Shown piece by piece: positions 3,831 through 57,209 of a stretch of 64,000 nucleotides of DNA (position 1 is its first letter; each line of letters begins with the position of its first letter). The stretch is from Tubulanus polymorphus (taxonomy: Eukaryota; Animalia; Nemertea). The notes beneath the pieces were generated by a model, which saw only the letters and a list, made by a program, of their open reading frames with translations, was not told where the DNA came from and did not search any database. The stretch lies in the NCBI RefSeq assembly GCF_964204645.1, contig NC_134028.1, positions 6,076,001 through 6,140,000 of the forward strand, given 5' to 3'. The position numbers and the translations under genes were made by a program.

Positions 3831-4023
3831 ATCCTGAATCTCACCCGGTCAAGCTGGTTGTACTGCGCTATTTGTGTTTCGAGCAATTTTACAGGTGTAT
3901 CAGTTACTGACGTCGCCCAGTACATCCTGCAGTTCATTTCATTTCATTTCGTTTATTGTAACTTTGTACAAAGTACAGTATACAAATATCGTTCATGTAA
4001 TACATAATATAATATAGTGGCAA

Positions 4024-4234
<211 letters not shown>

Positions 4235-4269
4235 TAGTATTTAGTAATCTAGTAATTTAGGGGGATACA

Positions 4270-7737: not shown

Positions 7738-7743
7738 CCAATC

Positions 7744-11170: not shown

Positions 11171-11349
11171 TTAGATCACCGATCACACAACTATATCTGT
11201 ACTTCGATTTCCGATTTTGAAAAAACTTAGACAAAATTATCTACAACCTTGTAAACTTTCGGACTATTTACACGAAAAAAAAACAACAAAAATTATGTAA
11301 AATTAGACAACCAACTTAGGAGACCCTCGCCGATAATGAACCCAGAAAT

Positions 11350-12300
11350 CACAAAAGGTAACTTAATATATATGGAATTATTGCAATAAATTCTAAATGA
11401 AATATTTTGTCATTACCAGGATGTCTTCTTTTAATCATTGCAGCTAAATTTCAACTATAAGAAACACCCAGCTTGAGATCAACTACTCGTCCAAAATCTA
11501 GAAACTGGAACAGCAAACAGGAGGCCAACTAGAATCAAACTTATCAACCAACAAACTTGAGATGATCCACGCTGATAACGAACGAAGCAATCATTAAAAG
11601 GTAACTTGATATACGTGGAATTATTTTGATGAATTCTAAATGAAATATTTTTTCATTACAGGATATCTTCTTTTAATCATTGCAGCTAAATATCAACTAT
11701 AAGAAAAAACCCAGCTCGAGATCAACTACTCGTCCAAAATCGACCAACTGGAACAGTGCACAGATGAGGTCAAATAGGATCCAACTCATTAACTACCCAA
11801 TTAATAAGATAATCGCCGATTATGAAACCAGCAATCATAAAAGGTAACTCGATATATGTGGAATTATGTCGCTAGATTCTAAATGAAATATTTTGTCATT
11901 ACAGGATATCTTTGTTTGCTCATTTCAGCTAAATCCTATCTATATGAAACTGCCCAGCTTTAAATCAATGACTCATCAAATATCTACAGATAAGCTCCGC
12001 CCACTTAACAATCCAAGCTTGAATCAAATGCATCAACCAATTGTTCTAACCGATACTGATCCCAGCAAACTTGAAATGTAAGTTGATTTTTTATGGAAAT
12101 TATTATGATAAATTCTAAATGAAATATTTTGTCATTACAGGATATCTTCTTTTAATCATTGCAGCTGAATTTCAACTATAAGAAAAAGCCCAGCTTGAGA
12201 TCAAATACTCGTCCAAAATCTACAAACTGGAACGGTGCACAGAAAAGGCCAGAACTGAACCCAACAATCTTTAAAGGTAAGTTGATATACATGAAATTAC
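11350..12300 (+). repeat. Diverged ~240-bp tandem modules with exon/intron-like boundaries
   Basis: Repeated ATTCTAAATGAAATATTTTGTCATTACAGGATATC..TTGCAG|CTAAAT..AAAAG|GTAACTT units, about 4 copies. Confidence 0.75.
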
Positions 12301-22346: not shown

Positions 22347-23183
22347 ATGGTAAGTCTTAAAGGCGCCTTTTAGCGAATTAGTGTATAGATGGCCGGGTAT
22401 AAAACGGTCGTTCAAAAATTATAGATTAGCGAAAGTAAGATTACAAAACCTGTCAACGTATACTAGACTTTCCTTGATTAATTCATGAATCCTTGCGCTT
22501 ATTTTTTTTCTTTTTTTTCTTGTAATTCGTGATCGATTTTTATTGCTAATTCATCATTATTCACGATCATATACTTGTTATATACGGGTCTCATTATATC
22601 CATGAAAATATTAGGTTATTTGTCCAGATGATTGGAAAACTCTGCGGGCGACTTTCAAAGCGTTCGATTCGGACAGAAGTGGGATCCTGACGGTAGAAAA
22701 GGTAAAAAGAGTTTTCGAGAATGCTGGCGTTAAGGTAGCTGAAGATGAAATCGCAAAACAACTGGTGCTCATGGACAGAAATGAAGACGGAAAAGTTGAC
22801 ATTGAAGGTATGTTTTACACCACTATAGGATAAACGATGCAACACCTACGGCACCCAAGAGTGCATGCTGGTAGTAACCAGGGGCTAGTTGCACAGTCAA
22901 GGCTAAGGTTTGTGACCAGTCTAAGACCGTCTTGGCTATGAAGCCAATCTAACAACTTAAGACGAGTCTTAAGATTTAAGACCACTTTTGGACTTACTAT
23001 GCAACTGGGCCCAGGATTATTAGCCCCTAACGGCGGTTCTATACACGAGTGACAATTCGGCTTACGGCGTTATTGAGCAGAATTTCGAAAATATATTCCG
23101 TTATACTACGTTTAAGGTAAATTGTTAATAGAGTTTCAATTATAATTTCAGACTACATTCAAGCTATGTTAGATCCGGAGTGA
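22347..23183 (+). CDS. Small two-EF-hand (half-calmodulin-like) protein, 75 aa
   Basis: Exons 22347-22349 (ATG only, then GTAAGT), 22615-22807, 23152-23183. Product MVICPDDWKTLRATFKAFDSDRSGILTVEKVKRVFENAGVKVAEDEIAKQLVLMDRNEDGKVDIEDYIQAMLDPE. Confidence 0.85.
22882..23011. mobile_element. MITE with CAG TSD (Harbinger-like)
   Basis: TIRs GGGCTAGTTGCACAGT / ACTATGCAACTGGGCC, flanked by CAG on both sides. Confidence 0.6.
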
Positions 23184-23653
23184 CCCGAGCCGCATATTCT
23201 TCCCTGAACGTGCCAAATGAAACAACTACCTCATATGCTTTTAATAGAGAAGCGATAGTGGATATATAATATCTATGTATGTTATTTTCTATGTTGAAAT
23301 AGCTCGGGAAATGAAAAGCTGTTTTTACTTATAAATGACTAATGTTTTAATAAATACGTAGATTCATTATGAATCTTTTATGAGATTTACTCTGCTATAT
23401 ACATGCATTTCGTTCTTTATTGCTTTAATTGGATCACATTTTGGTTTCTTTGGTGGCGTTAAAATCGAAGTCACGGGGTACCCGTACCTACTTTCTCATT
23501 CATGTCGATGGTGCCAGCTAAACAAATGGATTCCGATAACACTGACCTTTCTGAAAAGGACGAATTCTGCTTGTCACCTGAAAGTTCATCTATGACACCC
23601 CCAGGACTGGATGTCGTGGATGTCATACTGAGACATTTTTGATGGAATCAAAA

Positions 23654-23834
23654 CAGTGGAACCTCGTTAATACGAATCTTGTGGCAAAAGTGAAATTGAT
23701 GTACTAAACGAGTTTCCAAGTATTATCCAAATCTGGATTGATGATATTAATATGTTGGCTAGGACATGCAGGAAATCATCGTGATAAACGGGTTTCGTCA
23801 TAATAAACAGAATCGTATTAACGAGGTACTACTG
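23654..23834. mobile_element. Tc1/pogo-like MITE (duplicated at ~29515-29692; half copy at ~16820-16877)
   Basis: TIRs CAGTGGAACCTCGTTAATACGA / TCGTATTAACGAGGTACTACTG, followed by TA. Confidence 0.65.
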
Positions 23835-25633
23835 TATCAAAGAAATCTTCGGGCAAACAGATGGGCAGCGACTTACAAAAGCTAGTTCAATCAACTACAG
23901 AAAGCAATGAAATGTTACTGCATATATCCGGTACTTTATTTATAATTGCATTAGAATAGAATATAAAAGGTTCAAAAATAAGTAAAACACCAACAATGCA
24001 TATAACGATAATTATCAGTGGAATCTTATATATCCGCATTTCGATGGTGCCAGCGAAATCAAAATTCAATAATGATTCCTCCGACTGGGTGTCGTGGATG
24101 AATTGAAATGCACCATGCACTAGCGTCAAAATCTAAACACTTCCATGGTCGAGTGATATAGTCTCAATTACATCAGAATGTTCGTGACTTTTACAGCCCT
24201 AGGCTCGCACTGTCCCCCTCAACTTATGTATGTGTAAACTCTGTATACTAATGTAATGTCCCTATCTTATATCACATAGAAATATGTTATAATAATATCA
24301 TTAAAAGAATCGAATAGTCCTCATATGGGTTTTTTTCTATCGCAATCTCGTGACTGGCAACCATCCACGCGACAAACATTGACGTCACAGAAACAGATAC
24401 AAACCAGTAGACCTACTACAAAAAAGAAAATGTTTCCTTTGATATCGTGTTCGATATTGTGACCTACAGATTAATTCAAAAACTCTTCGCTTTACGGGTT
24501 ACTATTGTACGAACCTGAATAAGACATATGTAAAAAGTATACATATACACATGTGATACATGATGAAGTAAAACCTGCATATATTCCTCACCGAGCTCGC
24601 CAAAAACAACCTTGCTTGCTTCTTAAACACAGTTGACAAAAGATAATGTTTTTGCTAAGTTATTTGTTAATGTCAAAGTAGCCCGGTTAGTGAAAACCTG
24701 CTTTACTCTTTTTTTTCGATATAGCCTATAATTAGATTTTTATGACTTGAGATTCATCAAATATGTATTTCCTTTTTTATAACTTAAATTGGATCAAATT
24801 TCTTGTCTTTCTTGTGGTGTTTAGTCGGAAGTTACCTACTGTCATATCGATGGTACCAGTGAAATATGCAAATGGATTCCGGTGACACTGACTCTTCTGT
24901 AATGGACGAATTCTGTCTCTCCACGAAATCCAATTATGATACCTCCAGAACTGGATGCCGTGGATTTTATACTTAAAGATCCCTTTCTTGTGGAATTGAT
25001 ACATCACAGAAATCTTCGGACAAACAGATAAACAGAGACATTTTTAGAAAAATCTAGTCGGGTGAACTATAAAACATAGTACTAAGGTACTTTATTTAAA
25101 ATTGCATCCGAATAAGATATGAACAAGTAAAACATCAACACCGCATAGTATAACGATAATTCACCGCGGAATGTTATATAGCCATATCGACGGTGCCAGC
25201 GAAATATACAATTCGACGCCTTAAGGACTGAATGTCATGGATGTTAAAATACCTGAGCATTTTGATAGAATTTGATATCACAGAAATCTTCGGACTAACA
25301 AACTGAACAACTATTTACAAAAAATGTTAGTCGCATAAACTGAATAACACAATACCAGGTTACTGCATGTGCCCGGCAGCTTATATAGAATTGCACCAGA
25401 ATGATATAGAAAACGTTCAAAAATAAATAGACCATCAATAACGTCTATTAAAACGATAGTGTACAGCAAAACCTTGCAAAAAATCGGTAACAGGCTGATT
25501 ATGAAAACTAAATCATCAATCAATAATTTTAATAATAATAATTCGGATTAAAGCAAAACATGTATATCGATTCCATTTTTACACCTTATCTCTATTTACA
25601 CGATGAGTGATCATTGGACTGATATCGAGTAAT

Positions 25634-27997
25634 TTAACTATAGGTGTAAGCGGGAGGTGGGTATGCGGGATCATTTTGTGGAGCAAAGCCCGATGTTGGT
25701 CCGGGTGGTGGAAATGCTGGGGGATATTGGGATGGCGGTGGTGGATACATAGTTTTCTGTGGTGGATAAGTCGTCAGGCCGTATCCTTGTTGTGTGGCGT
25801 CGTTGTAGTTCGGTGGCGGAGGATATTGGCTGGTGGAAGCACTTCCCGCTGTTGTAGACACAACAACTGCCCGATTAGGTTGCACTAGTCCTGCAAAGAG
25901 AATATGTGAATTCATCTTTTGATAGAAAGATTTAATCACAAAAATTTTAATCAACGGCATGTTTTACATTTGCGAAAGGATATAATGGTGTTTTATTGAA
26001 ACTATCAACGTTATTATACTAGCGCTCTGGATACCGTTCCTGGGGTTATTGATAATGCATCTGAGTTTGAAGTGGTTGTTCTGCAATTAATTCGCGAAAA
26101 CGTCTAGAAGACGATGGCCGCTGGATTCACGCAGCGACGTCAGGAAATTAACAAACTTCACTTTTCAAATTAAAATGGAAGCTTATATAGTTCATATGGC
26201 ATTTCATATTACTCGTGATATCACAGTTATACATCATATCATTACATCCGATTCTGTGAACTATCAAATTTTCTTCCAGTTATATAAGCGACATTTTTCT
26301 CAAACTTTTGCAGAATAACCACTCCAAACGGATGTACCTTAATCTAGGAACTGTATCCCAAGCCCATCGGCGAGTGCCTGTATGATTAAAACCATTAAAA
26401 GTTCGTTCCATTGGTGTTATTGATGCCGTAACTGTGGGATAGGGTTCTCAATCAAATTCAATCAACAACCGTAAAACAAGAATTTTGATAATTATACTTA
26501 CTTCGCTGCCTGTTCTTTTTTGAGACGACCACAACCGGAATCACGATTAACAGTACTATGATGATGAACACCGATACACCTACGACAGGACCGATCCAAA
26601 ACAAATTGAGCCTGAATTGGCAAGAATAGTGACCCTCATTTCAAACAATCATTGCAAAAGATTATGGCCAATCTACATATCATGTTTTTCTTTATGCTAA
26701 CTTCAAAATTTAATCAGGTTTAAATCTTATGTATTTCAATTGACTTGATACGACGAATTACCCATAGATATAGAAAGAAATAGAATTCACGTCATTTTTT
26801 GCGAGCACAATTTCGAAAATGAAACTAAATTAAGAAAAGTTCTTTCGGGTACATTTAGACTGAATCCTTTAAGAAATACTTTAGAAAAAGGCTAAAAATA
26901 CAAATAAGAATAGGAAAAATAACAAAATAGGCCGGAAGAATAAAATCAGACATTAATTTTGATTGCCTAACCTTATCTACTTACGTCGTGGTCGTGGACG
27001 TTGATGAACTGGATTGATATTTGGAACAACTAGATTTGCTGACGTCGTAATAGTTGTCCGTCCAGTCGATGCCGCTTGATGAAATCGAAGAGCAACAGTA
27101 TTTAAATGTCTTTGACCCGCAACACTTATATGTACAATATTTCGACTCTCTGTAATAACCACTAGAACTACAATATGCGTAACACTTTCCCATCGCGTCT
27201 TTGCCAATTAATTGCCAAAAATTAGTAAGGAAATTGAAATGCACTATCCGCTGATATATAATCGTCAACTTAGAACGTAGAAATTCCTTGGTCTAGCGAA
27301 CGTCAGAATGTACGTGACTATTCAACCGCGAATAGATTATTCTCTGCTGATAAATAACGTCGAAAGAATGGAACGGTGATTCATGTGGGTTTTTTCTAGC
27401 GGGATCTCGTGACTGGCAACCGTCCATAAAACATAACAAACATTGTCGTCACAGAGAGATATTCAAACCAGTACTTCATAAAAGAAAATATTTCTTGATA
27501 TTGTGTTCGTTGGCGTTAATGTGACCTACAGATTATTTGAAAAGTAGCTATTCGCGTCACGGGTAACTTATTTTATGAACCTGAATAAGACATTTATATT
27601 GAAGTATACAAATAGACAAATAATATAAGCATCAAGATACAAGTAAGACATATACATATGGCAGATGTGAACTCAAACCATGGAATCAGTGGATCATGAA
27701 ACCAGTTGTATCGTATCCGTGTAAAGATTGGCCACATCACGACCTTTCAATTTTTGAAAAGGGACATTTCAGGTGAACAGATATGATATGATTGTTATGT
27801 CTCTAGATGAGTTTGCATCTCCGGCGAAAGATTGGTTTTGTTTGCTCATAATATACTGGGGAGATATTTGTCACGGCGTTGCCAACTTGAGCAAGGATGA
27901 TTATTTTAGATTTTAGTTTATCATATTTTTGAGTATCAGCACCAAATAACACTATAGATATCGAATCAATCAAATAGATGCAGAGACGATTACCCAT
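25634..27997 (-). CDS. Shisa-like single-pass membrane protein, type A copy 1 (~194 aa)
   Basis: Exons 27994-27997 (ATGG, tentative), 26985-27198 (CYAYC..C..CCG..KYCC), 26502-26611 (TM WIGPVVGVSVFIIIVLLIVIPVVVVS followed by KKNRQR), 25634-25890 (Pro/Tyr-rich tail with PPNY and PPAY). All phases fit. Confidence 0.8.
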
Positions 27998-28689
27998 ATT
28001 TCAAGATAAAAAACACAATCACAAACTCAACGTAACATCCCGCTACCAGCCTCATTATTTCCGTGATGATACATATGGTGGTTGCCACGGACTACTAAAG
28101 CCTACCTACTGAACAATAATGTAGCGGCCGCTGCAATGGATAATTTATTGACTTTGAATATAAATGTGATAACGCCTATATTTGCCCATTTCTATTCAAT
28201 TCTCTACTTATTACTCAATTCGTTCATTTATCGACTGATTTGTTTTGATTACAAGCTTCACATTCGATCTACTGGTTTCTCTACGCAGCATAGCTATGAA
28301 ATACAGTCAAAAAGCTGAGGTGATGATAGCGTAAGTCTTGCCACCGTCTTGTGCAGCCGAGTGTGAGCAATGATTTTGTTTTAAATTTCGCGTTTTTTTC
28401 ACACTAAGCTCGCGAGCCTTTCCAAACATTCAAATGGAATATTCGAGGATCACAACTTAGTCTTTGAATCCCTTGAGAGGAATAGCGAAAGTACCGGTGA
28501 GACGCCAAACGATTTGGCAGGAGATTCATAGTTTATTAGTTCTCTGATAGGAGCACATCGCAAGCGTCTCACATTGTAAATTTTCTCCCAGATGTTACCC
28601 CTTCACATTTATCGGGTTACTTAGTCAGTTTGTAAAATCCCGTTATCAATGCTTCATTATAATTAAAACGATATCGTTCTTATCGACTG

Positions 28690-29152
28690 TTAAAGAGTTT
28701 CTGATAATATTTCTCCGTGATAGGAAGATTGTTCTGGGTGGTATTCTCGAATTTGGTAAGCTGTGTCGATTATTGAATAAGCCAATGCTGAATACGAGTG
28801 CACAAGTCAGAATAGGCTACATGGGAACCCACCATAAAAAAAAGATCAACGAAATATTCTTGTGAAGTTAAGTTTACGACGTTGAATAAAGATGAATAAT
28901 GAAGACTCAGTAACTGCGCTTGTGACTGAACATTTCGATAAGATTTTTTATCATCATCATTTTTATCATCAATATGGACAAATTTACAAAATACTAACAG
29001 ATCACCAAAGCAAAACCTCCGTTAATATTCCATTGTTCGGTGATTATTTTCATTACGTGTGAGCAACAATATTTATACGTGTTATACTCGCCACAATTCT
29101 GTGATGGAATGGTTGTCGTACCATCCGGCCCGCAGTATGAATAGCACCACAT
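28690..29152 (-). pseudogene. Shisa-like type B pseudogene (B1)
   Basis: MWCYSYCGPDG..QNCG homologue with the CC-G motif deleted, exon phase shifted, TM-exon acceptor AG lost and most of the TM exon deleted relative to B2/B3. Confidence 0.75.
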
Positions 29153-31481
29153 CTTATCTGCAATCTGAATTTATCACCATACCTTTTCATATAGTATCGA
29201 AATCTAAAACTTTTCATATAGTATCGATATCTAAAAATATCAATTTTAATAAGTTAAAACTCACGCATGTATCTTCATAATTGCTTTAATTGGATCACAT
29301 TTTGGTTTCTTTGGTGGCGTTAAAATCGAAGTCACGGGGTACCCGTACCTACTTTCTCATTCATGTCGATGGTGCCAGCTAAACAAATGGATTCCGATAA
29401 CACTGACCTTTCTGAAAAGGACGAATTCTGCTTGTCACCTGAAAGTTCATCTATGACACCCCCATGACTGGATGTCGTGGATGTCATACTGAGACATTTT
29501 TGATGGAATCAAAACAGTGGAATCTCGTTAATACGAATCTTGTGGCAAAAGTGAAATTGCTGTACTAAACGGGTTTCCAAGTATTATCCAAATCTGGATT
29601 GATATTAATATGATGGCTAGGACATGCAGGATATCATCGTGATAAACGGGTTTCGTCATAATAAACAGAATCGTATTAACGACGTTCAACTGTATCAAAG
29701 AAATCTTCCGGCAAACAGGTGAACAGCGACTTACAAAAGCTAGTTCAATCAACTACAGAAAGCAATGAAATGTTACTGCATATATCCCGTACTTTATTTA
29801 TAATTGCATTAGAATAGAATATAAAAAGTTCAAAAATAAGTAAAACACCAACAATGCATATAACGATAATTATCAGTGGAATCTTATATATCCGCATTTC
29901 GATGGTGCCAGCGAAATCAAAATTCAATAATGACTCCTCCGACTGGGTGTCGTGGATGAATTGAAATGCACTATGCACTAGCGTCAAAGTCTAAAAACTT
30001 CCATGGTCGAGTGATATAGTCTCAATTACATCAGAATGTTCGTGACTTTTACAGCCCTAGGCTCGCACTGTCTCCCTCAACGTATGTATGTATAAACTCT
30101 GTATACTTATGTAATGTCCCAATCTTATATCACATAGAAATATGTTATATCAATATCATTAAAAGAATCGAATAGTCCTCATTTGGGTTTTTTCTATCGA
30201 AATCTCGTGACTGGCAACTATCTACGCGACAAACATTGACGTCACAGAAACAGATACAAACCAGTAGACCTACTACAAAAACGAAAATGTTTCCCTTGAT
30301 ATTGTGTTCGATATTGTGACCTACAGATTCTTTGAAAAACGAACTCTTCGCTTTACGGGTTACTATTGTACGAACCTGAAAAAGACATTTGTAAAAAGTA
30401 TACATATACACATGTGATACATGATAAAGTAAAACCTGCATATATTCCTCACCGAGCTCGCCAAAACTACCTTGCATGCTTCTTAAACACAGAACTGTTG
30501 GCGAAAGATAATGTTTTTGCTAAGTTATTTTTTAATGTCAAAGTAGCCCGGTTAAATCTGCTTTACTCTTAAATGAATTTTTCGATATAGCCTATAATTA
30601 GATTTTTATGACTTGAGATTCATCAAATATGTATTTCCTTTTTTATAACTTAAATTGGATCAAATTTCTTGTCTTTCTTGTGGTGTTTAGTCGGAAGTTA
30701 CCTACTGTCATATCGATGGTACCAGTGAAATATGCAAATGGATTCCGGTGACTCTTGACTCTTCTGTAATGGACGAATTCTGTCTCTCCACAAAATCCAA
30801 TTATGACACCTCCAGAACTGGATGCCGTGGATTTTATACTTAAAGATCCCTTTCTTGTGGAATTAATACATCACAGAAATCTTCGGACAAACGGATAAAC
30901 AGAGACATTTTTAGAAAAATCTAGTCGGGTGAACTATAAAACATAGTACTAAGGTACTTATTTGAAATTGCATTCGAATAAGATATGAATAAGTAAAACA
31001 GCAACAACGCATAGTATAACGATAATCTACGGCGGAATGTTATATAGCCATATCGACGGTTCCAGCGAAATATACAATTCGAAACCTTAAGGACTGAATG
31101 TCATGGATGTTAATACTTTGGCATTTTGATGGAATTTGATATCACAGAAATCTTCGGACTAACAAACTAAAAAACTATTCACAAAAGTTAGTCGGATAAA
31201 CTGAATAACACAATACCAGGTTACTGCATGTGCCCGGTATCTTATATAGAATTGCACCAGAATGATATAGAAAACGTTCAAAAATAAATAGACCATCAAT
31301 AACGATAGTTTACAGCAAAACCTTCTAAAAATCGGTAACAGACTGATTATGAAAACTAAATCGGCAATCAATAATTTTTCATGACTATAATTCGGATAAA
31401 AGGAAACCATGTACATCGATTATATTTTTACACTAATCTCTATTTACACGATGAGTGATCATTGGACTGATATCGAGTAAT

Positions 31482-34400
31482 TTAACTATAGGTGTAAGCG
31501 GGAGGTGGGTATGCGGGATCATTTTGTGGAGCAAAGCCCGATGTTGGTCCGGGTGGTGGAAATGCTGGGGGATATTGGGATGGCGGTGGTGGATACATAG
31601 TTTTCTGTGGTGGATAAGTCGTCAGGCCGTATCCTTGTTGTGTGATGTCGTTGTAGTTCGGTGGCGGAGGATATTGGCTGGTGGAAGCACTTCTCGCTGT
31701 TGTAGACACAACAACTGCCCGATTAGGTTGCACTAGTCCTGCAAAGAGAATATGTGAATTCATCTTCTGATAGAAAGATTTAATCACATAAATTTTAATC
31801 GATGGCATGTTTTACATTTGCGAAAGGATATAATGGTGTTTTATTGAAACTATCAACGTTATTATACTAGCGCTCTGGATACCATTCCTGGGGTTATTGA
31901 TAATGCATCTGAGTTTGAAGTGGTTGTTCCGCAATTAATTCGCGAAAATGTCTAGCTTCATAGACTTTTCAAAAGACGATGGCCGCTGGATTCACGCAGT
32001 GACGTCAGGAAATTAACAAACTTCACTTTTCAAATTAAAATGGAAGCTTATATTGTTCATATGACATTCCATATTACTCGTGATATCACAGTTATACATC
32101 ATATCATTACATCCGATTCTGTGAACTATCAAATTGTCTTCCAGTTATATAAGCGACATTCTTCTCAAACTATGGCAGAATTACCACTCCAAACGGATGT
32201 ACATTAATCCAGGAAGAAAGCCACTAAATATTTGGATGGATATATGGAAGCTGTGTGTACTGGAGTGTGTAATGGGTAGTGTAGTGTGATCTGTGTGCAT
32301 TTTGGTGGCCAGCACACAGATCACATTGTTCATTGGGGTTTAGTCCATAACTCGCGAGATTTTCAACAACACGGGAGTAACGTGTAATAAATGATGACTT
32401 GAATTGCATGACTACCTACCACCCCTCATTATTGTTGGAAAACTAAACGTTCCGCACTGACTAAAAATTAGTAATAATAATCAATAACATTTTAGAAATG
32501 GCCAGAATTTTAACTTAGGTTCTATCTCATTTTTATTTTACAATTGCGATTGGTATAATTTTCTTTTAAACGGCCGTTAAGGCTTGATGTTTCGTCTGCA
32601 ATTCACTGCAAATAGTTACGCAACTACGCACATTTCAGTGTTTTTGGCAGCTGTACACTCAATCGGCACCGTTCGTGACTAGCTTCACTGCGGAATTATC
32701 ATTAATTAACATCGCCATATCACATCATCAACTTATATTGTGCCTTAAAACCCTAACAGCCGAAATAATTGAAATGCACACACGATTTCTATCATTGAAA
32801 ATTGAGAGAGTGGCCATGTTTGTGTTTGCTGCTTCGCGTAAATCCCGCGCGGTGGCGCAACCGCGCGGAGTGGGGCCGATACGTCTAGGAACTGTATCCC
32901 AAGCCCATCGGCGAGTGCCTGCATGATTATAACCATTAAAAATTCGTTCCGTTGGTGTTATTGATGCCGTAACTGTGGAACAGGGTTTACAAAAAAATTC
33001 AATCCACAACCGTAAAACAAGAATTTTGATAATTATACTTACTTCGCTGCCTGTTCCTTTTTGAGACGACCACAACCGGAATCACGATTAACAGTACTAT
33101 GATGATGAGCACCGATGCACCTATGACATGACCGAGCCAAGAATAATTGATCCTGAATTGGCAAGAATAGTTATCCTCATTTCAAACAATCATTGCAAAA
33201 GATTATGGCCAATGGACATATGATGTTTTTCTTTATACTAACAAAATTAAATCGGGTTTAATCTTGTGTATTTCAATTGACTTGATACGACGAATTACCC
33301 ATAGATATAGAAAGAAATAGAATTCACGTCATTTTTTGCGAGCACAATTTCGAAAATGAAACTAAATTAAGAAAAGTTCTTTCGGGTACATTTAGACTGA
33401 ATCCTTTAAGAAATACTTTAGAAAAAGGCTAAACATACAAATAAGAATAGGAAAAATAACAAAATAGGCCGGATTGAAAAGAAGAATAAAATCAGACATT
33501 AATTTTGATTGCCTAACCTTATCTACTTACGTCGTGGTCGTGGACGTTGATGAACTGGATTGATATTTGGAACAACTAGATTTGCTGACATCGTAAAAGT
33601 TGTCCGTCCAGTCGAGGGCGCTTTGTGAAAACGAATAGCAACAGTATTTAAATGTCTTAAACCCGCAGCAGTCGTATGGACATAATTTCGACGCTGTGTA
33701 ATAACCACTAGAACTACAATATGCGTAACACTTTCCCATCGCGTCTTTGCCAATTAATTGCCAAAAATTAGTAAGGAAATTGAAATGCACTATCCGCTGA
33801 TATATAATCGTCAACTTAGGACGTACAACTTCCTTGGTCTAGCGAGCGTCAGAATGTACGTGACAATTCAACCGCGAATAGATTATTCTCTGCTCATAAA
33901 TAACGTCGAAAGAACTGGACGGTGATTCATGCGGGTTTTTTTCTAGCAGGATCTCGTGACTGGCAACCGTCACAGAGAGATATTCAAACCACTACTTCAT
34001 AAAAGAAAATATTTCTTGATATTGTGTTCGTTGGCGTTAATGACCTATAGATTATTCGAAAAGTAGCTATTTGCGTCACGGGTAACTTATGAACCCGGAT
34101 AAGACATTTATAAGAAACCAGTTGTTTCTTATCCGTGTAAACATTGGGCACTCCACGACCTTGGGGTGTTGGCATTATTTATATTATAGGGTAAAGGAAA
34201 ACGTGAAGCCCCTGACAACTATAGAGGGATTACCCTCCTTAGTTGTCTCAGCAAACTTTTTACTAATATTTTGAATCAGCGCCTAAATCAATATTTAGAA
34301 GTGAATAATATACTCTTAAAGAACCAGGCCGGTTTTAAAAAGGAACATGGTATTTTAGATCATATTTTTTCCCTGAAGAGTGTAATAGATCTGTTTTTTG

Positions 34401-37238
34401 CAAATGGGAAAAAAATCATATTGCATGTTTATAGATTTCCAAAAATGTTTCGACACTATTAACCGCAAAGCCCTGTGACACAAACTAATAACCTCGGGAA
34501 TTACTGGTAAAATTCTCAACGTAATCTATAACATATACGAAATTGCAAAGTCTTGTGTTAAAGTTAATGGGGAGACATCTGACTTTTTTGAATCTCTTAC
34601 GGGCTTAAGACAGGGAGAAAACCTCTCTCCGATAGTATTCTCTATATTTGTTAAAGACATATCGTTAATGACATATAGAACAATATCTATTAGTAAGACG
34701 AAGGTTGCCAGAGTATCGATTTTCTTAGACCTGACAACTCTATATGGTTTAAACGTTTAGTACTACTTTATGCTGATGATACAGTGTTACTGGCCGAGAA
34801 CCCAGAGAACCTTCAGATATATTAGCAAGTAAAATGGCTGAATACTGTCAGAAATGGCACCTAAAAATTAACGAAGGTTATAGTTTTTGAGAAAAGGAAA
34901 GGCCGCCGCCGACCAAATATAATCATAAACGGCCATCAGATCGAGGTAGTTGTGAATTTTAGGTATTTAGGCATTATTTTTAATAAAAATGGTGAATTCA
35001 CCCTCTGTAGAAAATCTATCGCAGAGCACGCAAACAAGGCGTTGTTTTATGTCCTAAATAAAGTTCAAGAGCATGCCCTCGGAATTGATATTGCAGTACA
35101 ATCATATGACAGTATGGTACTTCCTATTCTTACCTTCGGATGTGAAATTTGGGGATTTGAAAATGTGACTATCCTAGAAAGGATTCAATTGACATTTTTT
35201 AAGTACATTTTAAAGCTAAAGAAGTCAACTCCTACCATTTTCGTGTATGGAGAGTTAGGGCGTTTTCCACTTGAAATTATTATAGAAATTAGATTAATTA
35301 AGTTCTGGGCTAAACTGCGCAATAGCAATAAATTATCATCTGAAATATCGCATGCAATACTAAAGTCTGTGGAGCGTGGTTCCCACCATGACTGGTTAGT
35401 TTTTATCCAAAACACGCTTATAACAAACGGTATTGGACATTTTTGGTACGATAAAACCCCGCATAACCCCGATTATGTAGCGCAAAGTCTGTCACTACGA
35501 TTAAAGGACCAATTTATTCAATATTGGAGGTATCAATGTAATATTTCTAGTATTGCTGAATCATACAAGATATTCAAAACAGAATGGGGATTTGAAACTT
35601 ATCTTACTCAATTGTCAAACGATATAAGGATAACCCTTTGTAGATTTCGATGTTCGAACCACCGTTTAGTAAAACCGTGTCCCACGTGTGAACAGACTTT
35701 GCACAAAATGTAATATGTGAGTTGTCTGTGACAAATTTCATTTTATATCTGTTTGTCCGTTTTTTGCCAATTTCCGTCGATACCTTTTTAGCTCGTACTT
35801 TGTAGATAACCCACAATTACATAAATTTGTAGACTTATTAAGATCATCAGATGTAAAACTCCGAAAGCTTGCCTTATTTATACGAAGATGCCTCATACAT
35901 TTTGAATGATATTGCTGTAACATTTTTTTCGCACATTAACTGTGTAGTGTAATTTTGGTTATATATTAGCCTTGGTTATAACCTATCGTCGATCCAAAAT
36001 ACAACATAATTTTGCTTCTGATATTGTCCTGATATTGTATTGATATTGTATTGTATTGACATTCATGTTGTATTGTCTTTTTGCTCTAAGCAAATGTACT
36101 TTTGTGAGCAATAAAATATTCTATATTCTATTCAATTTTTGAAAAGGGGCATTTCAGGTGAACAGATATGATTGTTATGTCTCTAGATGAGTTTGCATCT
36201 CCGGCGAAAGAATGGTTTTGTATATATTCTGGGGAGATCTTAGTCAAGGCGTTACCAACTTGAGCAAGAATGATTATTTTAGATTTTAATTAATCATATT
36301 TATTAGTATGGGCCAACGGAAACAAAGCAAAACTTTAAACAAAATTTGCCTGAATTCATTCAACTCAGAGCGACTACGCAGATCTTCACATTTGTCAACT
36401 CCTCACTGTGCATGCACATAGAAGTTACGGCCCATCTGATAAATAGTGACTGATGAATTGGATTATTGAAACACTAGTTACCCTGACTGTACAAAAGACA
36501 TAAAAAAGGAATTCACTCTGTTAATTCTGGAGAGAAACTAATTTATTCTGAATACAAAGTTTGACCACAACGACTCAAAACATGTGGCACATCATGTGAA
36601 AATTTACATATATAGTTTCCCCGCCATAGAAATTGGAAAAAAACATTTCTCACATGAGTCGCGACACTATTGTCATGAGATTTTCTTACGAAATCAACCG
36701 AATCCATTAACCATTGATGAAACACTCGTCACGGCGTATTGTGACGATCCCACACTAGTTATTACTTTATCCTCTCCGGTAGTCGTCTTCCAGAAAACTG
36801 TATTCCTGAAGATGACTAGTAGGATGTAGTCGAAAAGTTGAATAAACTACTAGCTCAATGATGTATTCCGGACTTGACTTTTCAGTAGTGAATCAAACAT
36901 TAGGTATTAGTCTGCGGAAAGGGCCGATGGCTGCGAAGGAGTGCCAAGTTGTATAGGACATAGTTTACCGATCGAAGCATGATTGATAAATTCAGGCAAA
37001 TTATTAGCAAATCTGCATAGCTGTAATAAACATGTCTACGTGTCATAAGATAATGTAGAAAACCGATATATTTTGAATATATGTATGATTAAGTGAGACA
37101 TATATATGAAAAACGAAACAAATCCACAGCACGGATGTGAACTTGAAACCAATTGTATATCTTATCTTTGTAAACAGGTTGCGGGAATGACAACACACAA
37201 ATCGAATTAATGAAATATATATAGGGAAAATAACCCAT
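31482..37238 (-). CDS. Shisa-like single-pass membrane protein, type A copy 2
   Basis: Exons 37235-37238 (ATGG, tentative), 33531-33744, 33043-33152, 31482-31738; frame open, same structure as copy 1. Confidence 0.78.
32216..32883. mobile_element. 668-bp segment present only in duplicate unit 2 (intronic)
   Basis: Absent at the paralogous site ~26342. Flanked by TCCAGGAA / TCTAGGAA; GC hairpin at 32845-32868 upstream of CTAG. Confidence 0.6.
34163..36131 (+). mobile_element. 5'-truncated, decayed RTE-X-like LINE in intron 1 of the A2 gene
   Basis: Frameshifted RT motifs (DNYRGITL, NQAGF, GLRQG, YADD, YLG, GELGRFPL, FRCSNH); AATAAA plus an (ATTCT)-type tail. The empty site GACCTT^TCAATTTTTG is at ~27746 in unit 1. 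Confidence 0.9.
36801..36844 (+). ncRNA. Minimal hammerhead ribozyme motif (slightly degenerate)
   Basis: TATTC-CTGAAGA-T-GACTA(loop)TAGTC-GAAA-AGTT-GAATA. Confidence 0.5.
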
Positions 37239-37575
37239 ATTTCAAGATTTTAAAAAAAGTAGTGTTAAACACAACCACAAAAGTAGAATTTCAAGTTCAC
37301 GTTACCAACCTCACTTATTTTCCGTGATGACATATTCACACGGACTACTAAAGGCTACCTCCTAAATAAATGTAGCGACTACTGCAATGAATTAACTTCA
37401 TGTGATAAGGTGGTCTATATCTGCCTATTTCTCAATTCTCTATTAATCATTCGTTCATTTATCGAGTGATTTGTTTTTGATTGCCAACCTCATTTATGAT
37501 CTACTGGTTTCTCTAGACAGCACAGGTATTAAGTACAGTATATAAGCCGAGGTGATGATGTCGTGAAGAGCGTTA

Positions 37576-37913
37576 AGGCGGGCGTAGGTCGGCCTTGCGA
37601 CGGCTTACGACTCACTGCGACGCGACTCACTGCGACCGCCAGCGACGATCGCGTCGCAACGACTCACCGACCTACGCTACTTTGCGACTGCCAGCGACGG
37701 GTTGCGACTGCCAGCGACGCCAGTCGCAATGAGTCGCACATGTTCTACTTTCTGCGACGCGATGCGACCGTCGCAACCGACCTGCGTGCTGTTGCGACTG
37801 GCAGCAACTAGTCGCACACAGTCGCTGACAGCCGCATCACAACCGACTTGCGCGGCCACCTGTGACGCAACGCGACGATCGCGTCGGATCGCAAGGCCGA
37901 CCTACGCCCGGCT
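37576..37913. mobile_element. PIF/Harbinger-type MITE
   Basis: 25-bp TIR AG(G/C)CGGGCGTAGGTCGGCCTTGCGA, TTA TSD, internal GCGAC/GTCGC repeats; absent at the paralogous site ~28332. Confidence 0.85.
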
Positions 37914-38268
37914 TTAGTCTTGCAACCGCCTTGTGTTACATCCGGATGCAAGAAATGAGTTTCTTTAGATACCAGGTTTAACACTAAGCTCATGAGCCTT
38001 TCCGAACGTTCATATGGAATATTCTAGGATCGCAACTTTTGGACCCTTTGAAAAGAATAGCGAAGGTACCGATGAGACACCAAACGATTTGGAGATTCAT
38101 AGTTTATTAGTTCTTTGTAAAATAGATAGAAAAGCGTACATTGTCAATTTCATTTTTCTCAGATGTCACCCCTTCACATCGAAGGATTCAGCGGGTTACT
38201 TATTCACTTTGTATAATCAATTTTTAGTACTGCTTCATTTTAGTTAACGATATCGTCCTTATCGACCG

Positions 38269-39031
38269 TTAAACTGATTGTTTTGGAGGGTATATTTGAT
38301 TTTGATAAGTGGTGTCACCCGTACCATAAGCCGGTGGTAGCAGTCCGGGGGCACTTGGGACAGCGGCATTTGTGATTCGTGTATACGAACTTCGGTTATG
38401 AGACATAGCTTGTATTTGCGCTGAAAAAAAAGCCAAAAATGCATCACATCTCAATCATCTGATCGTGTGACTGGGAAATTTCCTTCAGTGTAATTACTAG
38501 ACTAAACTCGACCATGCCAAGGAACCTGTCCGCTGATCGAACCATGCCCCAAAACGAAGAGGAAATTTGGTTGGGTACACGACCAACTTACCCAATCTCT
38601 GTCTTTTGTATCTGCGTACCAGTAGAAACGCGACTATGGATATAATAGTAAACACAACAGCACAAATCGCAATAGGCAAAACGATAATCCACCAACTAAT
38701 AAAAGAAAGATCAATAAAATATTTCATTCTTGTGAAGTCATGTTTGCGATGAATAATGAAGGTTGAGTAATTACACTCGAAAGTGAACATTTCGATGAGG
38801 CATTTTATCATCTAGTTTTTCATCATCAATTTCGACCAAATTACAGAATACTTACTGATCAGCAAGGCACACATTCGATTCTCCGCCGTAATTCCATTTT
38901 CCGGATATTATGTACATCGCGTTTGAGCAACAATATTTATACAAGTTCGTCCCGCAACAAAATTGCATGCCACAATTCTGTGATGGCATGGTCGTTTTAC
39001 CATCCGGCCCGCAGTATGAATCGCACCACAT
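38269..39031 (-). CDS. Shisa-like single-pass membrane protein, type B copy B2 (~143 aa)
   Basis: Exons 38856-39031 (MWCDSYCGPDG..NCGMQFCCGTNLYKYCC), 38592-38695 (TM WWIIVLPIAICAVVFTIISIVAFLLV followed by RRYKRQR), 38269-38420 (PPAY). Confidence 0.8.
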
Positions 39032-39832
39032 CTTATCTGTAATCTGAATTTATAACCTTACCTATCAATATAGTATCGTGATCAAAAAGAAAAAAAGAAA
39101 ATCAATCGCAATCATTAATTAGTTAAGAAAAAACTCACGTGTGTGTCTTTATGTTTGCTTTAAACCACTTAAATTGCTATCATTGCTCTCAAATAAAATT
39201 CATCAGTTACTCGGTACTTACGCAGTCACTCTGATTCGGGTGAATTCACGCTATTCTCCTCTAAGTATAAAAAGACTGTGTAACGCAATAAGTAGGAAGT
39301 TAATTCTGCAGAGAAACTAATTTATTCTCAATACATACAAAGTTTGATCACAAAGACTAGAAAAACATGTGAGACATCATGTGACAATTTTTTACGTATA
39401 TGTAGATTTTTACCGCTATAAAAATTTAATAAACATTTCTCACATGAGACGGGTGACATATGGTGTTACGTGATTTCTTTACGAAATCAAGCTGTATTGT
39501 GAAGATTCATAAAAGTGAACAACACAAAGTATGCGATTTCCTTTTTAGAAAACCGGTCGAATGGAGTATTCCATCATCACAACGAAATCTTTAAGCCCCT
39601 TAAAAAGAATAGCGAAGGTACCGACGAAACGCCATATGATTTGGAGATTCATAGTTTATTAGTTCTCTTTATAGATAGACTAGGCACACTGCAGGCGTCT
39701 CACATTGTCAATTTTGTTTTTCCTACATGTTCCCTCCCTTAACGTCGAAGGATTTATCCGGTTACTTATTCACTTTGCACAATCCTGTTATAATTGTTTC
39801 ATTATAGTTATCGGTATCGTTCCGATCGGCTG

Positions 39833-40848
39833 TTAAATAGTTTCCGATAAGTTTTCTGCCTGATTGGAAGACTGTTCTGGAAGATATCCTCGATTTTGGT
39901 AGGTTGTCTCACCCACTGAATAAACTGCTGGTGGAGGTGGTCCAGCGGCACCTATGACATCAGCATTTGCCATTCGTGACGTCGAACTTCGGTTACGAGA
40001 CATACCTTGTATTTGCGGAGGCACTGAAAGAAGCAAAGTGCAACACCTCTCAATTATCTGACCGTGAAACTTGGTTTCCTTCAATGTGGTGACTAGATTA
40101 TACTCGACTATGCCAAGGAACCTCTCCGCCGATCGAACCATGCCCTAAAACGAAGAGGATCTCTTCGAGTACCCGATAAACTTACCCAATTTCTGTCTTT
40201 TGTATTTGTATGCCAATGGAAACACAATGCTGAATACCAGTGCAATAATCGCAAAAGGCAAAACGAAAACCCACCATCTAATAAAAAAAGATAAACGAAA
40301 CAGTAGAATAGCCACACTTTGATGACGTGGAGAATAGATAATAAGTCTAAAACCCCACTACTGAAGTAAGATATTAAGACGTAAGACTATATGTAAGATA
40401 TTAAACGAATTTGATTCATCAATGACCTCTAGTGATCGAGAGTTCAAAACCTCGCGTATTTCGATAATAATTGTTGATAGATAAAATTCGTTTTTAATCT
40501 CGATTTATTTCTGTTTATAATGGGTTTTAAACTTATCAACGAAATAGTCAGTAGCTTACGGCCATGAATATTAGATGAAAGATGATGACTCGGTAACTGC
40601 GCTCGTGATTAAACAGATCAGATGTTTTTAATCATCAATTTGAACCAATTTACAAATACTTACAGATCACCGATGCACACATTTGATCGTCTGCCACTGG
40701 TCGGATAATTCCATCTTCTTGGGATTATTTCCAATACGTTTGAGCAACAATATTTATACGTGTTATTCCCGCAACAAAATATCGTGCCACAATTCTGTGA
40801 TGGTATGGTCGTTTTACCATCCGGCCCGCAGTATGAATCGCACCACAT
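39833..40848 (-). CDS. Shisa-like single-pass membrane protein, type B copy B3 (~155 aa)
   Basis: Exons 40664-40848 (MWCDSYCGPDG..NCGTIFCCGNNTYKYCC), 40186-40277 (TM), 39833-40023 (GPPPPAVY tail); phases fit. Confidence 0.8.
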
Positions 40849-41894: not shown

Positions 41895-44800
41895 ATGTCT
41901 ACGTGTCAAAAATGTGGAAAACCGGTATATTTTGGTGAGTTATTTTCCACTCCCTCCAAATCCAACAAAACTAAAAATCTGAAAGTCTTAGAGTAGGCAG
42001 CTGAATAAACCCTATTCAGACTAACACTTGTTAGAACGACCTATCAGTTATACTAATCCCATCACCCCCGGTACATATAGTGAAAACCTTCCCTGGCCTA
42101 ATTAGCTGGGCTACACAGGACCACTGACCAGGTAGTCAAGTAGGCTACCTAGCCGTCGTTCCCCACACAACCCGTTGTAGGGAACTCGTAACAACGACTG
42201 GTATTCAGACTAGGCTGCAGGCTTTTGCTTTGGCTAAAAAAAGAAACCCCTCCATCTTCAGAGAAAGCACAGATCTTTGCATGTTTAACTCCCCCTCCTA
42301 CATAGATACTGTGAGATTATTTTTTCTGCCATTTTCTTTTTTCAACAGCTGAAAGAAAAACGTCACTGGGTAAAGAATGGCACAGGCAGTGTCTACGCTG
42401 TGAAGAATGTGGAAAGGTTTTGAACCCAGGTCAACATGCCGAGGTAAGATCATGTGTAAGCAATGTTATAGAAGTCTGCTCTTCAATGGACGTTAGTCAA
42501 AAACAATCCTCCTCATCGGCAGTTTTTCAGAGGCATCTGTTATTTCTAAGTTGAACAGAATGTTTAATTCATTTGTTGATTAGTGTGATTATTTATCAGA
42601 ACATGGACGTATTTCAAAACGAGATCTAGTTTATACGTCTAAAATCAGACCAAGTTAGTCGTGCTGCAAGTCACTTGTTTGATAGTGAATACTAGGGAAT
42701 TTTCCTGATTGGTTCATTTTGATTCAGCGTCCCTTATAAACCCACCTTGAAGAACACAAATTGAAGAACAGATATAGTTGGATGGTTGATCAAAATTAGC
42801 GGGGTACACAGATAATTTCTTGTTCAAGGCGAAGTACATTATAATTGGAAACTTCTTAACCCTTTCAGTGCGTCTACACCGCAGTGCGGTGTATGAATTG
42901 ATGATGGATTTTGCTAGTACATTGCACTGCGGTGTATTGATATAATTAGTTTTTATCTGTATTTAATGATGGTCGCGCCTGTCAAACATAGTGAAATATT
43001 AGTAACTAACAATACACTGCACTGCGGTGTATACGCACTATTCAAGTGGTATTCCCGTTATTCGACACACTAGGGTGGAATTTTTCAAAATTTTCAATTT
43101 TCAATTTATCTCCAGCACTATAGGGTATTGATTAGTCAGCACTGAAAGGGTTAACAATCTACCGACCGGCCTAAACTGACTCATTGGGGGTAATGGTTGC
43201 CTCATTTGTTACATGAAGATTTCGAAATAACTATAGGCCTAAAAAGATTGTTATTTTCTATGTTTTTGGTTCTCTGGCTTCCATATGTACTGTCTGTCTG
43301 TCTATGTATGTACGTGTCTGACTTAGCTACTTAGCTTCGTTGAACTAGGGTAATATGGGGGTCTAGTTGTGCAGTGCAAAAGATGGGCCCAGTGCACCAC
43401 CTAGTGGCAAAACTAGGCACTAAAGACTGCTTTTCAGCTACATGACTTTGAAGATGACCTCATAACTGAGGAGTGGGGTCGAATTCATAAAGTTGTCTTG
43501 ACAACATTTGGCTATTGGCCCTAGATATCAGTACCCGTACAACATATCCATAATTTCGGAGTTTGTGTTTAAGCCCGAGCCCAATAACCATTATTGCCTT
43601 TGGCTTGTTTTTGTCATTTTCCACGCGTACCCGGTAAATGGTCCAGAAACATTTTTTGGGTGGTTTTTTCTCGAGTAGATGTTGATGTAGAGGTCCTCTA
43701 TGTTGTTTTTCCCATGCAAAGACTACAGATTTATAATTGTAGAAAGAAGCATATTTCGAATTGTAGATTTTCCAGATGAGAGTGTTGTCCTGGTATCTGA
43801 AGTGTTATGAAGTGTCCACTTGTGTATGAGACCTTACTAGCTCCACTGGTTATTAACACCTCTGCTGAAGCTTTTGAAACCTAAAAACTGACTCCTGAAT
43901 ATCATGTTTGAGTCGTAAATTTCTACGCAATAGAAATTTGCTCCAGTCGGTGCTGCCATCTTCTGTTGATGTTAATGACTAACAACCGTTACGCTATCAG
44001 AGATAGTTTCTTCTCATTATCAGCTGATTTCTAATGTCTTAACAATGAAAAAGAAATAGGATTTTAGAACAATGTATGTGGACAATTCTATATAAAGTTG
44101 GGACAAGTTAAATTCCACCATTTCATCAAGTAGTTGTTGGGGCTAGACATTTTGAAAAATGTCGAAGATTTTATTTTGGTGGGGCTTCAATAATATTGCC
44201 ATGGATTGATAATCAAATATTCAAATAGCAAGAAAGCTCCAATCTTTACAGGAAAAAATATTTTCATTCTGACACTGCCTTGATAATTATCTCTCACTTA
44301 ATCGATTTTGAAAGTTTTGCGAAGATAATGCGCATGACTTTTGGTGTCTTTATATATAGCTAGGCCTAATTTGGACATATTTCCTAGCCTTCCACCTACG
44401 GTAGATGTATTTATTCGGCGCTTTGAAAATGAAAAAAAAATTTCTAGGCCATAGATGTCTTTCAATATATCTTACAATAATTCTTTGGATATACAGCTGG
44501 TGTAACCTGCATTTGAAATTTGCGAAGACCTGTCGCAACGGAGTTGCTTGGCACTAAGGAACACCGCGTCGATTGTATGATATTCCCGGCCGCCCATTGT
44601 ACGCCGCCGTTACAAAACGTCATTCTTCGTTTTGAATGAAATAAGTCTTTTATTCCGTTCCTCTTGAGAACTGGTCGTTAAACATATTTTTCAATGAAAT
44701 ATATGCGAATTGTCGTTAAGGCATGTACTTCACTGCCGTAGTCTATGTAAAACATTAATAAGAGTATCCCGCGTATGTATAAACCCCTCACCCGGTAACC

Positions 44801-57063: not shown

Positions 57064-57209
<146 letters not shown>

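What the first reader, a model, noticed from the sequence alone, without database searches (positions are those of the whole stretch)
33043..33744. Divergence between paralogues A1 and A2 is concentrated in the ectodomain and mostly non-synonymous
Manual alignment of the Cys exons (26985-27198 vs 33531-33744) gives 12 amino-acid changes (about 16 non-synonymous vs 3 synonymous nucleotide changes), all in a ~110-nt block. A1 reads RESKYCTYKCCGSKTFKYCCSSISSSGIDWTDNY; A2 reads TASKLCPYDCCGFKTFKYCCYSFSQSALDWTDNF. All cysteines are kept. The TM exon has 9 changes, 8 of them in its outer half. The 257-nt cytoplasmic exon has only 2 changes and the adjoining introns are almost identical. B2 and B3 also differ between the cysteines. 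Inference: diversifying selection on a ligand-binding surface (immune, self/non-self or gamete recognition), or exon-limited gene conversion from another paralogue.
Basis: partly seen in the sequence, partly recalled or inferred. Interest (0 to 1): 0.8.

Follow-up and report, generated by a model that had tools for sequence, protein, structure and literature searches.

The report
Diverging twin Shisa-like adaptor genes
Two neighbouring ribbon-worm genes, both expressed, encode near-identical membrane proteins that differ almost only in their outward-facing part; they are likely Shisa-like adaptors that would send different partner proteins for degradation, and selection probably, but not provably, keeps that part different.

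Summary
The counts are right; the immune or self-recognition reading is not supported. A1 and A2 are tandem single-copy genes of the nemertean Tubulanus polymorphus, both spliced and about equally expressed. They encode 191-aa Shisa-like proteins: Cys domain, one transmembrane helix, PY-motif tail, no signal peptide. A 107-nt block holds 19 differences (17.8%, against 4.1% in non-coding DNA) between near-identical tracts, the pattern of a divergence peak under gene conversion. But 16:3 is what random substitution gives in that block (Cys-exon dN/dS 1.1-1.6). Only the whole coding sequence shows a marginal excess (dN/dS 2.1-3.4; P about 0.03, or 0.10 when stratified by region). The introns beside the TM exon are as divergent as the exon. 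Four runs from three studies show only the same two block types, so no allelic hypervariability and no third donor copy were seen. A neutral conversion model fitted to the rest of the duplicate gives such a peak somewhere in 22% of accepted simulations, though it would rarely fall on this exon. Best reading (0.5): selection keeps two client-binding surfaces apart on a shared ubiquitin-ligase-recruiting tail. Main rival (0.35): a neutral unconverted remnant in a weakly constrained family.

The parts
33531..33739 (-). A2 first coding exon: Met1 to residue 70, Shisa-like Cys domain (8 Cys) plus Ser/Thr stalk
   Evidence: Reproduces P0001 = XP_074647034.1 with GT/AG sites; Pfam Shisa_N 18 bits, under the cut-off of 22
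33590..33696 (-). A2 divergent block (codons 15-50): 19 nt and 12 aa differences from A1
   Evidence: the same 19-difference type seen in 4 of 4 runs
33043..33152 (-). A2 TM exon; 10 non-synonymous and 0 silent differences from A1, 9 of the 10 in the first 45 nt
31482..31738 (-). A2 cytoplasmic exon, proline-rich, PY motifs at residues 132 and 185
26985..27193 (-). A1 first coding exon (Cys domain plus stalk); the transcript extends upstream to at least 27248
   Evidence: Reproduces P0002 = XP_074647033.1; spliced-run contig 27151-27248; Shisa_N 20.7 bits
27044..27150 (-). A1 divergent block; position 27070 carries the A2 letter in 19 of 20 reads of run X7
26502..26611 (-). A1 TM exon, inside a plateau of about 8-9% divergence that includes its intron flanks (26382-26729)
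25634..25890 (-). A1 cytoplasmic exon; a 209-nt run identical to A2 spans 25588-25796
26730..27043 (.). Near-identical tract on the 3' side of the block (1 substitution in 314 columns plus one 9-nt indel); likely conversion tract
   Evidence: Scan P=0.0014; alignment
27151..27273 (.). 123-nt tract identical in A1 and A2 on the 5' side of the block
23413..27746 (.). A1 duplication unit
   Evidence: Self-BLAST 91-94% to 29274-34162 over most of its length, 88% for the last 49 nt
29274..34162 (.). A2 duplication unit, including a 676-nt high-copy insertion at 32208-32883
28726..29152 (-). B1, broken paralogue: 15-nt deletion removing the first CC pair, stop in the TM remnant, internal deletion
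38269..39031 (-). B2, intact 143-aa Shisa-like paralogue in three coding exons
   Evidence: Equals P0003 = XP_074648397.1; Shisa_N above the cut-off
39833..40848 (-). B3, predicted intact 155-aa paralogue
   Evidence: GT/AG model; Shisa_N 29.7 bits; expression not tested

Best explanation
A1 and A2 are co-expressed tandem duplicates whose flanks and tail have likely been homogenised by gene conversion, while selection probably keeps their Cys domain and outer transmembrane half different, so that two predicted Shisa-like adaptors would capture different membrane clients for the same NEDD4-type ubiquitin ligase. Shown: two single-copy loci, both spliced, two recurring block types, a peak flanked by near-identical tracts, one TM helix, two PY motifs, no signal peptide. 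Inferred: N-out topology (basic cluster after the helix), ligase binding through the PY motifs, client binding through the Cys domain and outer helix, and selection as the cause of the peak. The client is not identified.
For: The peak of 19 in 107 columns sits between tracts with 1 in 314 and 0 in 123; 200-nt window against its flanks, Fisher P=0.0005. The highest peak of a 4119-column duplicate lies wholly inside the 209-nt Cys exon, a 2.6% target. The Cys and TM exons (9.1% each) exceed non-coding DNA (4.1%) while the tail is at 1.2%. Whole-CDS dN/dS is 2.1-3.4 by four methods, P=0.03 under uniform placement. The TM exon has 10 N and 0 S (P=0.035-0.065). No stop or indel, all Cys kept. 18 of 19 block differences recur in 4 of 4 runs. 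Changes inside the outer helix fit a partner in the same membrane. Precedents, passages read: Comm binds Robo through TM and juxtamembrane regions (PMC2583054); CYYR1 and WBP1L recruit NEDD4-family ligases through PPxY motifs (PMC11399591); a divergence peak as a selection signature (PMC2588116; PMC3924837).
Against: The N:S ratio in the block equals the random expectation; Cys-exon dN/dS is 1.1-1.6, P 0.36-0.53. The whole-gene excess falls to P=0.10 when stratified by region. Keeping the 5 Cys of the block has P=0.08 only. A neutral conversion model gives a peak of 19 or more in 22% of 2531 accepted simulations (1-30% by the age of the duplicate). The Fisher P misses the 0.0001 cut-off used in PMC2588116, whose test also used two species. 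The TM flanks are as divergent as the TM exon. B2/B3 show dN/dS about 0.7-0.8 overall, so the family is weakly constrained, and their Cys core is their most similar part. One block site is not fixed (27070 in X7). The region was picked after inspection.
Confidence: 0.5

Rival explanations
1. Neutral remnant: the duplication is older than its 4% average suggests, conversion has patchily erased most differences, and the block and TM plateau merely escaped it in a weakly constrained gene. Once divergent, they resist further conversion.
For: Block N:S equals the neutral expectation. Silent divergence in the block is also raised (3-4 of about 25 sites against 4.1%; P=0.02-0.08). Non-coding divergence is overdispersed (index 1.96) and reaches 14 in 107. 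The neutral model gives such a peak in 22% of accepted runs. TM flanks match the TM exon. B2/B3 dN/dS about 0.7-0.8.
Against: It does not explain why the top peak coincides with the Cys domain (2.6% target), nor 0 silent among 13 changes outside the Cys exon. Coding DNA under any purifying selection should lag behind introns, not lead them.
Confidence: 0.35
2. The duplication captured two old, divergent alleles of one gene (fixed heterozygosity), and the block records a former balanced polymorphism.
For: Two types at about 1:1 expression (1971 against 1784 in X2; 11 against 13.7 in X5) and raised silent divergence in the block.
Against: No further alleles seen. The longest listed X5 pieces differ from the window at about 6 of 2400 nt, far below the paralogue divergence.
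Confidence: 0.08
3. The block was copied into one gene from a third paralogue.
For: A remnant of an older A-like copy without coding sequence lies at 23403-24551, 70-75% alike, so a third copy once existed.
Against: All 6 X1 contigs laid at 80% likeness are A1, A2 or shared, at depth 35+35. Protein searches found only A1, A2 and B2 plus one unrelated hit. B genes are about 35% identical in this domain. The remnant lacks its coding part in both units. The whole genome could not be searched.
Confidence: 0.04
4. Hypervariable immune, self/non-self or gamete-recognition receptor under ongoing diversifying selection.
For: Outward-facing, Cys-scaffolded variation; a small tandem family with a pseudogene.
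Against: Only two block types and no new letter at 8% or more of reads in 4 of 4 runs (small sample, contigs hide rare variants). Adaptor anatomy and no signal peptide.
Confidence: 0.03
5. Assembly artefact: two alleles placed in tandem.
For: High similarity of the two units.
Against: In X1 each block type has single-copy depth (35.9 and 34.6, against 36-42 for unique contigs) and shared parts have about double (62-68); one X1 contig spans the B1-A2 junction without a difference. Both types occur at about 1:1 in runs of two further studies.
Confidence: 0.01

Closest known systems
Shisa-like / STMC6 adaptors (CYYR1, WBP1, WBP1L, VOPP1, TMEM92, SHISAL2)
   Same: Small N-terminal Cys domain containing C*C*CC*CC, one TM helix, aromatic juxtamembrane residues, proline-rich tail with PY motifs. 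Nearest Atlas clusters are mollusc CYYR1-like (0.91) and shisa-5 (0.90) for A1, and Shisa_N and shisa-like-2B (0.90) for B2.
   Different: Eight Cys in a C*C*C*CC*CC*C pattern shared by A and B genes; no signal peptide; A1/A2 score under the Pfam cut-off; no relative outside this species was found by sequence.
Vertebrate Shisa subfamily (Shisa1-9)
   Same: Eight Cys, single TM, proline-rich tail.
   Different: The pattern C*C*CC*C*CC*C and a signal peptide (PMC10531659, passages) are not met: there is no Cys between the two CC pairs.
Drosophila Commissureless
   Same: Works like it by inference: no signal sequence, PY tail, client engaged through TM and juxtamembrane residues (PMC5578492, PMC2583054; passages).
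   Different: Comm lacks the extracellular cysteines; no homology is claimed.
Divergence peaks under concerted evolution (human red/green opsin exon 5; Drosophila CG18281/CG17637)
   Same: A coding peak between homogenised flanks (passages).
   Different: Those cases have cross-species support and, for opsins, known functional sites; here there is one species, a weaker test and no known client.

Membership tests
Shisa-like / STMC6 | Six Cys in a C*C*CC*CC arrangement in the N-terminal domain | tested here: met
   Cys at 4, 8, 20, 24, 25, 33, 34, 56 contain the pattern stated in PMC5578492, with two extra Cys
Shisa-like / STMC6 | Match to Pfam Shisa_N at the curated cut-off (22 bits) | tested here: inconclusive
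   A1 18.3-20.7 and A2 18.0-18.7 bits (E 4e-4 to 3e-3), under the cut-off; tandem paralogues B2 25.3-28.8 and B3 29.7, over it
Shisa-like / STMC6 | Single transmembrane helix | tested here: met
   One hydropathy peak, 19-residue window from residue 80; AlphaFold helix 76-108, the only confident part of the model
Shisa-like / STMC6 | Proline-rich tail with [LP]PxY motifs | tested here: met
   PPNY at 132 and PPAY at 185 in both
Shisa-like / STMC6 | Binding to NEDD4-family WW domains and adaptor activity | not testable with these tools
   Inferred from CYYR1 and WBP1L (PMC11399591)
Shisa subfamily proper | Pattern C*C*CC*C*CC*C | tested here: not met
   No Cys between the CC pairs; pattern from PMC10531659
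Shisa subfamily proper | N-terminal signal peptide | tested here: not met
   No hydrophobic stretch in the first 38 residues; an in-frame stop upstream with no ATG between; no splice seen at 27198; the RefSeq model starts at the same Met
Hypervariable allorecognition or immune receptors (Alr, fester, SpTransformer; recalled) | Many alleles or variants among individuals | tested here: not met
   Two block types and one swapped site in 4 runs from 3 studies; small sample
Selection-maintained divergence peak (Teshima-Innan signature) | Peak shared at the same place by the paralogue pair in two species | not testable with these tools
   No orthologue found; the one-species window test gives P=0.0005

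The most novel reading that the evidence does not exclude
A signal-peptide-less, eight-cysteine branch of invertebrate Shisa-like adaptors in which positive selection is re-aiming the client-binding face (Cys domain plus outer helix) against conversion pressure, as in an arms race over which membrane proteins, possibly foreign ones, are sent for ubiquitin-dependent destruction. The 21 changed residues would map the client-binding surface of a family whose clients are mostly unknown.
Probability: 0.15. Interest if true: 0.6.

Novelty: new member of a known kind. Interest (0 to 1): 0.3.

Why it matters
If selection is the cause, the pair is a natural domain-swap experiment. The tail is shared and 21 residues of the outer face differ, so it marks where Shisa-like adaptors contact their clients, which is poorly known for invertebrate members. 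If not, it is a clear caution that a 16:3 count and a divergence peak can arise without positive selection in duplicates under conversion. The protein family and the evolutionary signature are both already described.

Tried and rejected
No whole genome was held, so paralogues elsewhere were tested only through reads and protein collections. Both AlphaFold jobs gave no usable Cys domain (pLDDT under 50 for residues 1-72; mean 44.5), so changed residues could not be mapped and no fold search was run. The search for exon-sized relatives found no candidate. P0004 (E 4e-4) is a repeat protein with no TM or tail and was set aside. The scaffold test (9 residues kept, P=0.01) is partly circular, because the set came from an alignment that included both A1 and A2; only the Cys-only value (P=0.08) is used. 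One search listed no holder on record as RNA; X2 and X5 were recognised as spliced only from loose ends equal to the TM exon. X1 pieces with 7 and 3 other letters at depth 57-59 were first read as a third haplotype; they are more simply merged A1/A2 paths (inference, not tested). The pile of read starts at 27148 in X7 was not a third allele. Pei and Grishin 2012 is not held, so family definitions come from papers citing it. Literature searches for Shisa-like plus Nemertea (0 papers), T. polymorphus genome (12 of 13 listed) and Shisa with selection and immunity (20 of 158 listed) showed nothing on these genes in titles or abstract starts. Earlier-findings look-ups were empty.

Full report
Setting. 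Self-comparison of the window shows two tandem units, 23413-27746 (A1) and 29274-34162 (A2), 91-94% identical over most of their length, interleaved with more distant B copies. A search with the A1 Cys exon returned one protein among 380 candidates, P0001. Its cluster has two members, XP_074647034.1 and XP_074647033.1 of the nemertean Tubulanus polymorphus. Three GT/AG exons on the minus strand reproduce both letter for letter, so P0001 is A2 and P0002 is A1. B2 is P0003. B3 gives an intact 155-aa model. B1 is broken.

Checking the observation. The Cys exon has 19 nt differences, 12 aa changes, 15.5 N and 3.5 S. The TM exon has 10 nt, 9 aa and 0 S. The cytoplasmic exon has 3 nt and 2 aa. Non-coding columns differ at 145 of 3543 (4.1%). 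All Cys-exon differences lie in 27044-27150 (17.8%). This is the highest 107-column window of 4119; uniform permutation gives P=5e-5 and an overdispersed fit P=0.02, while the highest non-coding window has 14. The flanks of the TM exon differ at 10 of 120 and 9 of 114 positions, like the exon itself at 10 of 110.

Is it non-synonymous excess? Not in the block. Placing 19 random changes there gives on average 12.8 aa changes and 3.0 silent codons; 12 and 3 are seen. Cys-exon dN/dS is 1.09-1.61 by four methods, with P 0.36-0.53. The signal comes from outside the block, where 13 of 13 changes are non-synonymous. The TM exon alone gives P=0.035-0.065, and the whole CDS gives dN/dS 2.07-3.39 with P=0.03 under uniform placement and 0.10 when stratified by region. 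B2 and B3 do not repeat the pattern. Their overall ratio is 0.68-0.78 and the Cys core is their most similar part, 8 differences in 99 nt against 18-22% non-coding, although 7.5 of those 8 are non-synonymous.

Real duplicates, both expressed, no hypervariability seen. In DNA-type run X1, which may be the source of the assembly, the A1 and A2 block contigs have depth 35.9 and 34.6, shared parts 62.5 and 68.5, and unique contigs 36-42; one contig spans the B1-A2 junction with no difference. All 6 X1 contigs laid at 80% likeness are A1, A2 or shared, so no third copy of that likeness is present. Runs X2 and X5 are not on record as RNA, but their loose ends at the donor site are TM-exon sequence, which shows spliced molecules. 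They carry both types, at depth 1971 against 1784 and 11 against 13.7. Raw reads of X7, from a third study, show both types at about 1:1 (9 of 20 reads A2-type at 27072). All 22 rows of other letters are A1/A2 differences; no new letter reached 8% of reads. One site is not fixed: at 27070 (Ile42/Leu42) 19 of 20 X7 reads carry the A2 letter, either a very short conversion or a young A1 variant. The sample is at most four individuals, two of the four runs share a study, contigs hide rare variants, and 4 rows of the piece table were not shown.

Gene conversion. Identical or near-identical tracts flank the block (1 difference in 314 columns, scan P=0.0014; 0 in 123) and cover most of the PY tail (209 nt, P=0.015); non-coding counts are overdispersed (index 1.96, P=0.0009). 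A coding peak between homogenised flanks is the published signature of selection resisting conversion (PMC2588116 and PMC3924837, passages). A 200-nt window against its flanks gives 19 of 200 against 11 of 400, P=0.0005. However, a neutral conversion model matched to the mean and dispersion of the rest of the duplicate produced a peak of 19 or more in 22% of 2531 accepted simulations out of 59990, ranging from 1% to 30% with the assumed age. The height of the peak is therefore weak evidence. Its position, wholly inside the 209-nt Cys exon (a 2.6% target), is stronger but was noticed after the fact.

What the protein is. The Cys exons match Pfam Shisa_N (A1 20.7 and A2 18 bits, under the cut-off of 22; B2 28.8 and B3 29.7, over it). 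The nearest Atlas clusters are CYYR1-like and shisa-5 for A1 and Shisa_N and shisa-like-2B for B2. There is one hydrophobic segment followed by a basic cluster, PY motifs at 132 and 185, and eight Cys that include the C*C*CC*CC pattern of Shisa-like proteins but not the Shisa pattern. There is no signal peptide: the N-terminus is not hydrophobic, an in-frame stop lies upstream with no ATG between, and contigs of the spliced runs pass 27198 unbroken, to 27248 in X5. An N-out, single-pass topology is inferred. A2 alone gains a possible N-glycosylation site at residue 72.

Mechanism. Mammalian members bind NEDD4-family ligases through PPxY motifs and route proteins to lysosomes (PMC11399591, passages). 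Commissureless engages Robo through TM and juxtamembrane regions (PMC2583054, passages), and the Cys domain of SHISA5 is reported as needed for partner binding (PMC10531659, passage). In A1/A2, 20 of 23 aa changes lie in the Cys domain or in the juxtamembrane and outer-helix stretch (residues 71-85), and the PY motifs are unchanged. Changes inside the helix fit a client in the same membrane better than a soluble ligand. I therefore favour two adaptors with one output and different clients, kept apart by selection (0.5), over a neutral unconverted remnant (0.35). Ligase binding, client identity and compartment are untested, and structure prediction failed for the Cys domain.

Novelty. The family and the evolutionary signature are known. 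I found no paper on these genes (listings only) and no sequence relative outside this species. No supplementary files were read, and the defining paper was unavailable. Verdict: new members of a known kind with a suggestive but unproven selection signal; interest 0.3.

Noticed in passing
window 23403-24551 (and 29274-30412): Remnant of an older A-like copy inside each unit: promoter/5'-like DNA (75% to 27363-27618) joined to 3' UTR-like DNA (70-74%), with the coding exons missing.
   Followed up: partly
window 32208-32883: Insertion in A2 intron 2 only, at about 500 times single-copy depth in X7. It starts with TC and ends near a GC-rich hairpin followed by CTAG, Helitron-like (label recalled, not tested). 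Its end recurs near 22942-22996.
   Followed up: partly
window 28726-29152: B1 pseudogene: 15-nt deletion of the first CC pair, a stop in the TM remnant and an internal deletion.
   Followed up: yes
window 4273-7743 and 7747-8508, minus strand: Open frames of 1157 and 254 aa that look like an intact non-LTR retrotransposon (endonuclease plus reverse transcriptase; label recalled, not tested).
   Followed up: no
window 34170-35710: Degraded non-LTR retrotransposon-like fragment between A2 and the DNA that resumes homology with the region upstream of A1 (label recalled).
   Followed up: no
window 17318-19173, minus strand: Lys-rich exons resembling the C-terminal half of LARP7 (recalled resemblance; Pfam gave no match over cut-off).
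   Followed up: partly
window 22805-23150: One X5 contig joins 22614-22805 to 23150-23395, a possible intron of a transcript reaching the edge of the A1 unit.
   Followed up: no
window 27746-29209 versus 36131-39088: The B halves of the two A-B units are only 70-87% alike while the A halves are 91-94% alike, which suggests an older A-B duplication with conversion confined to A.
   Followed up: partly
window 9640-12233, 4000-4243, 57061-57210, 44631-44983: Tandem arrays of about 58 and 241 nt, two long simple-repeat tracts, and an exact 175-nt tandem duplication.
   Followed up: no
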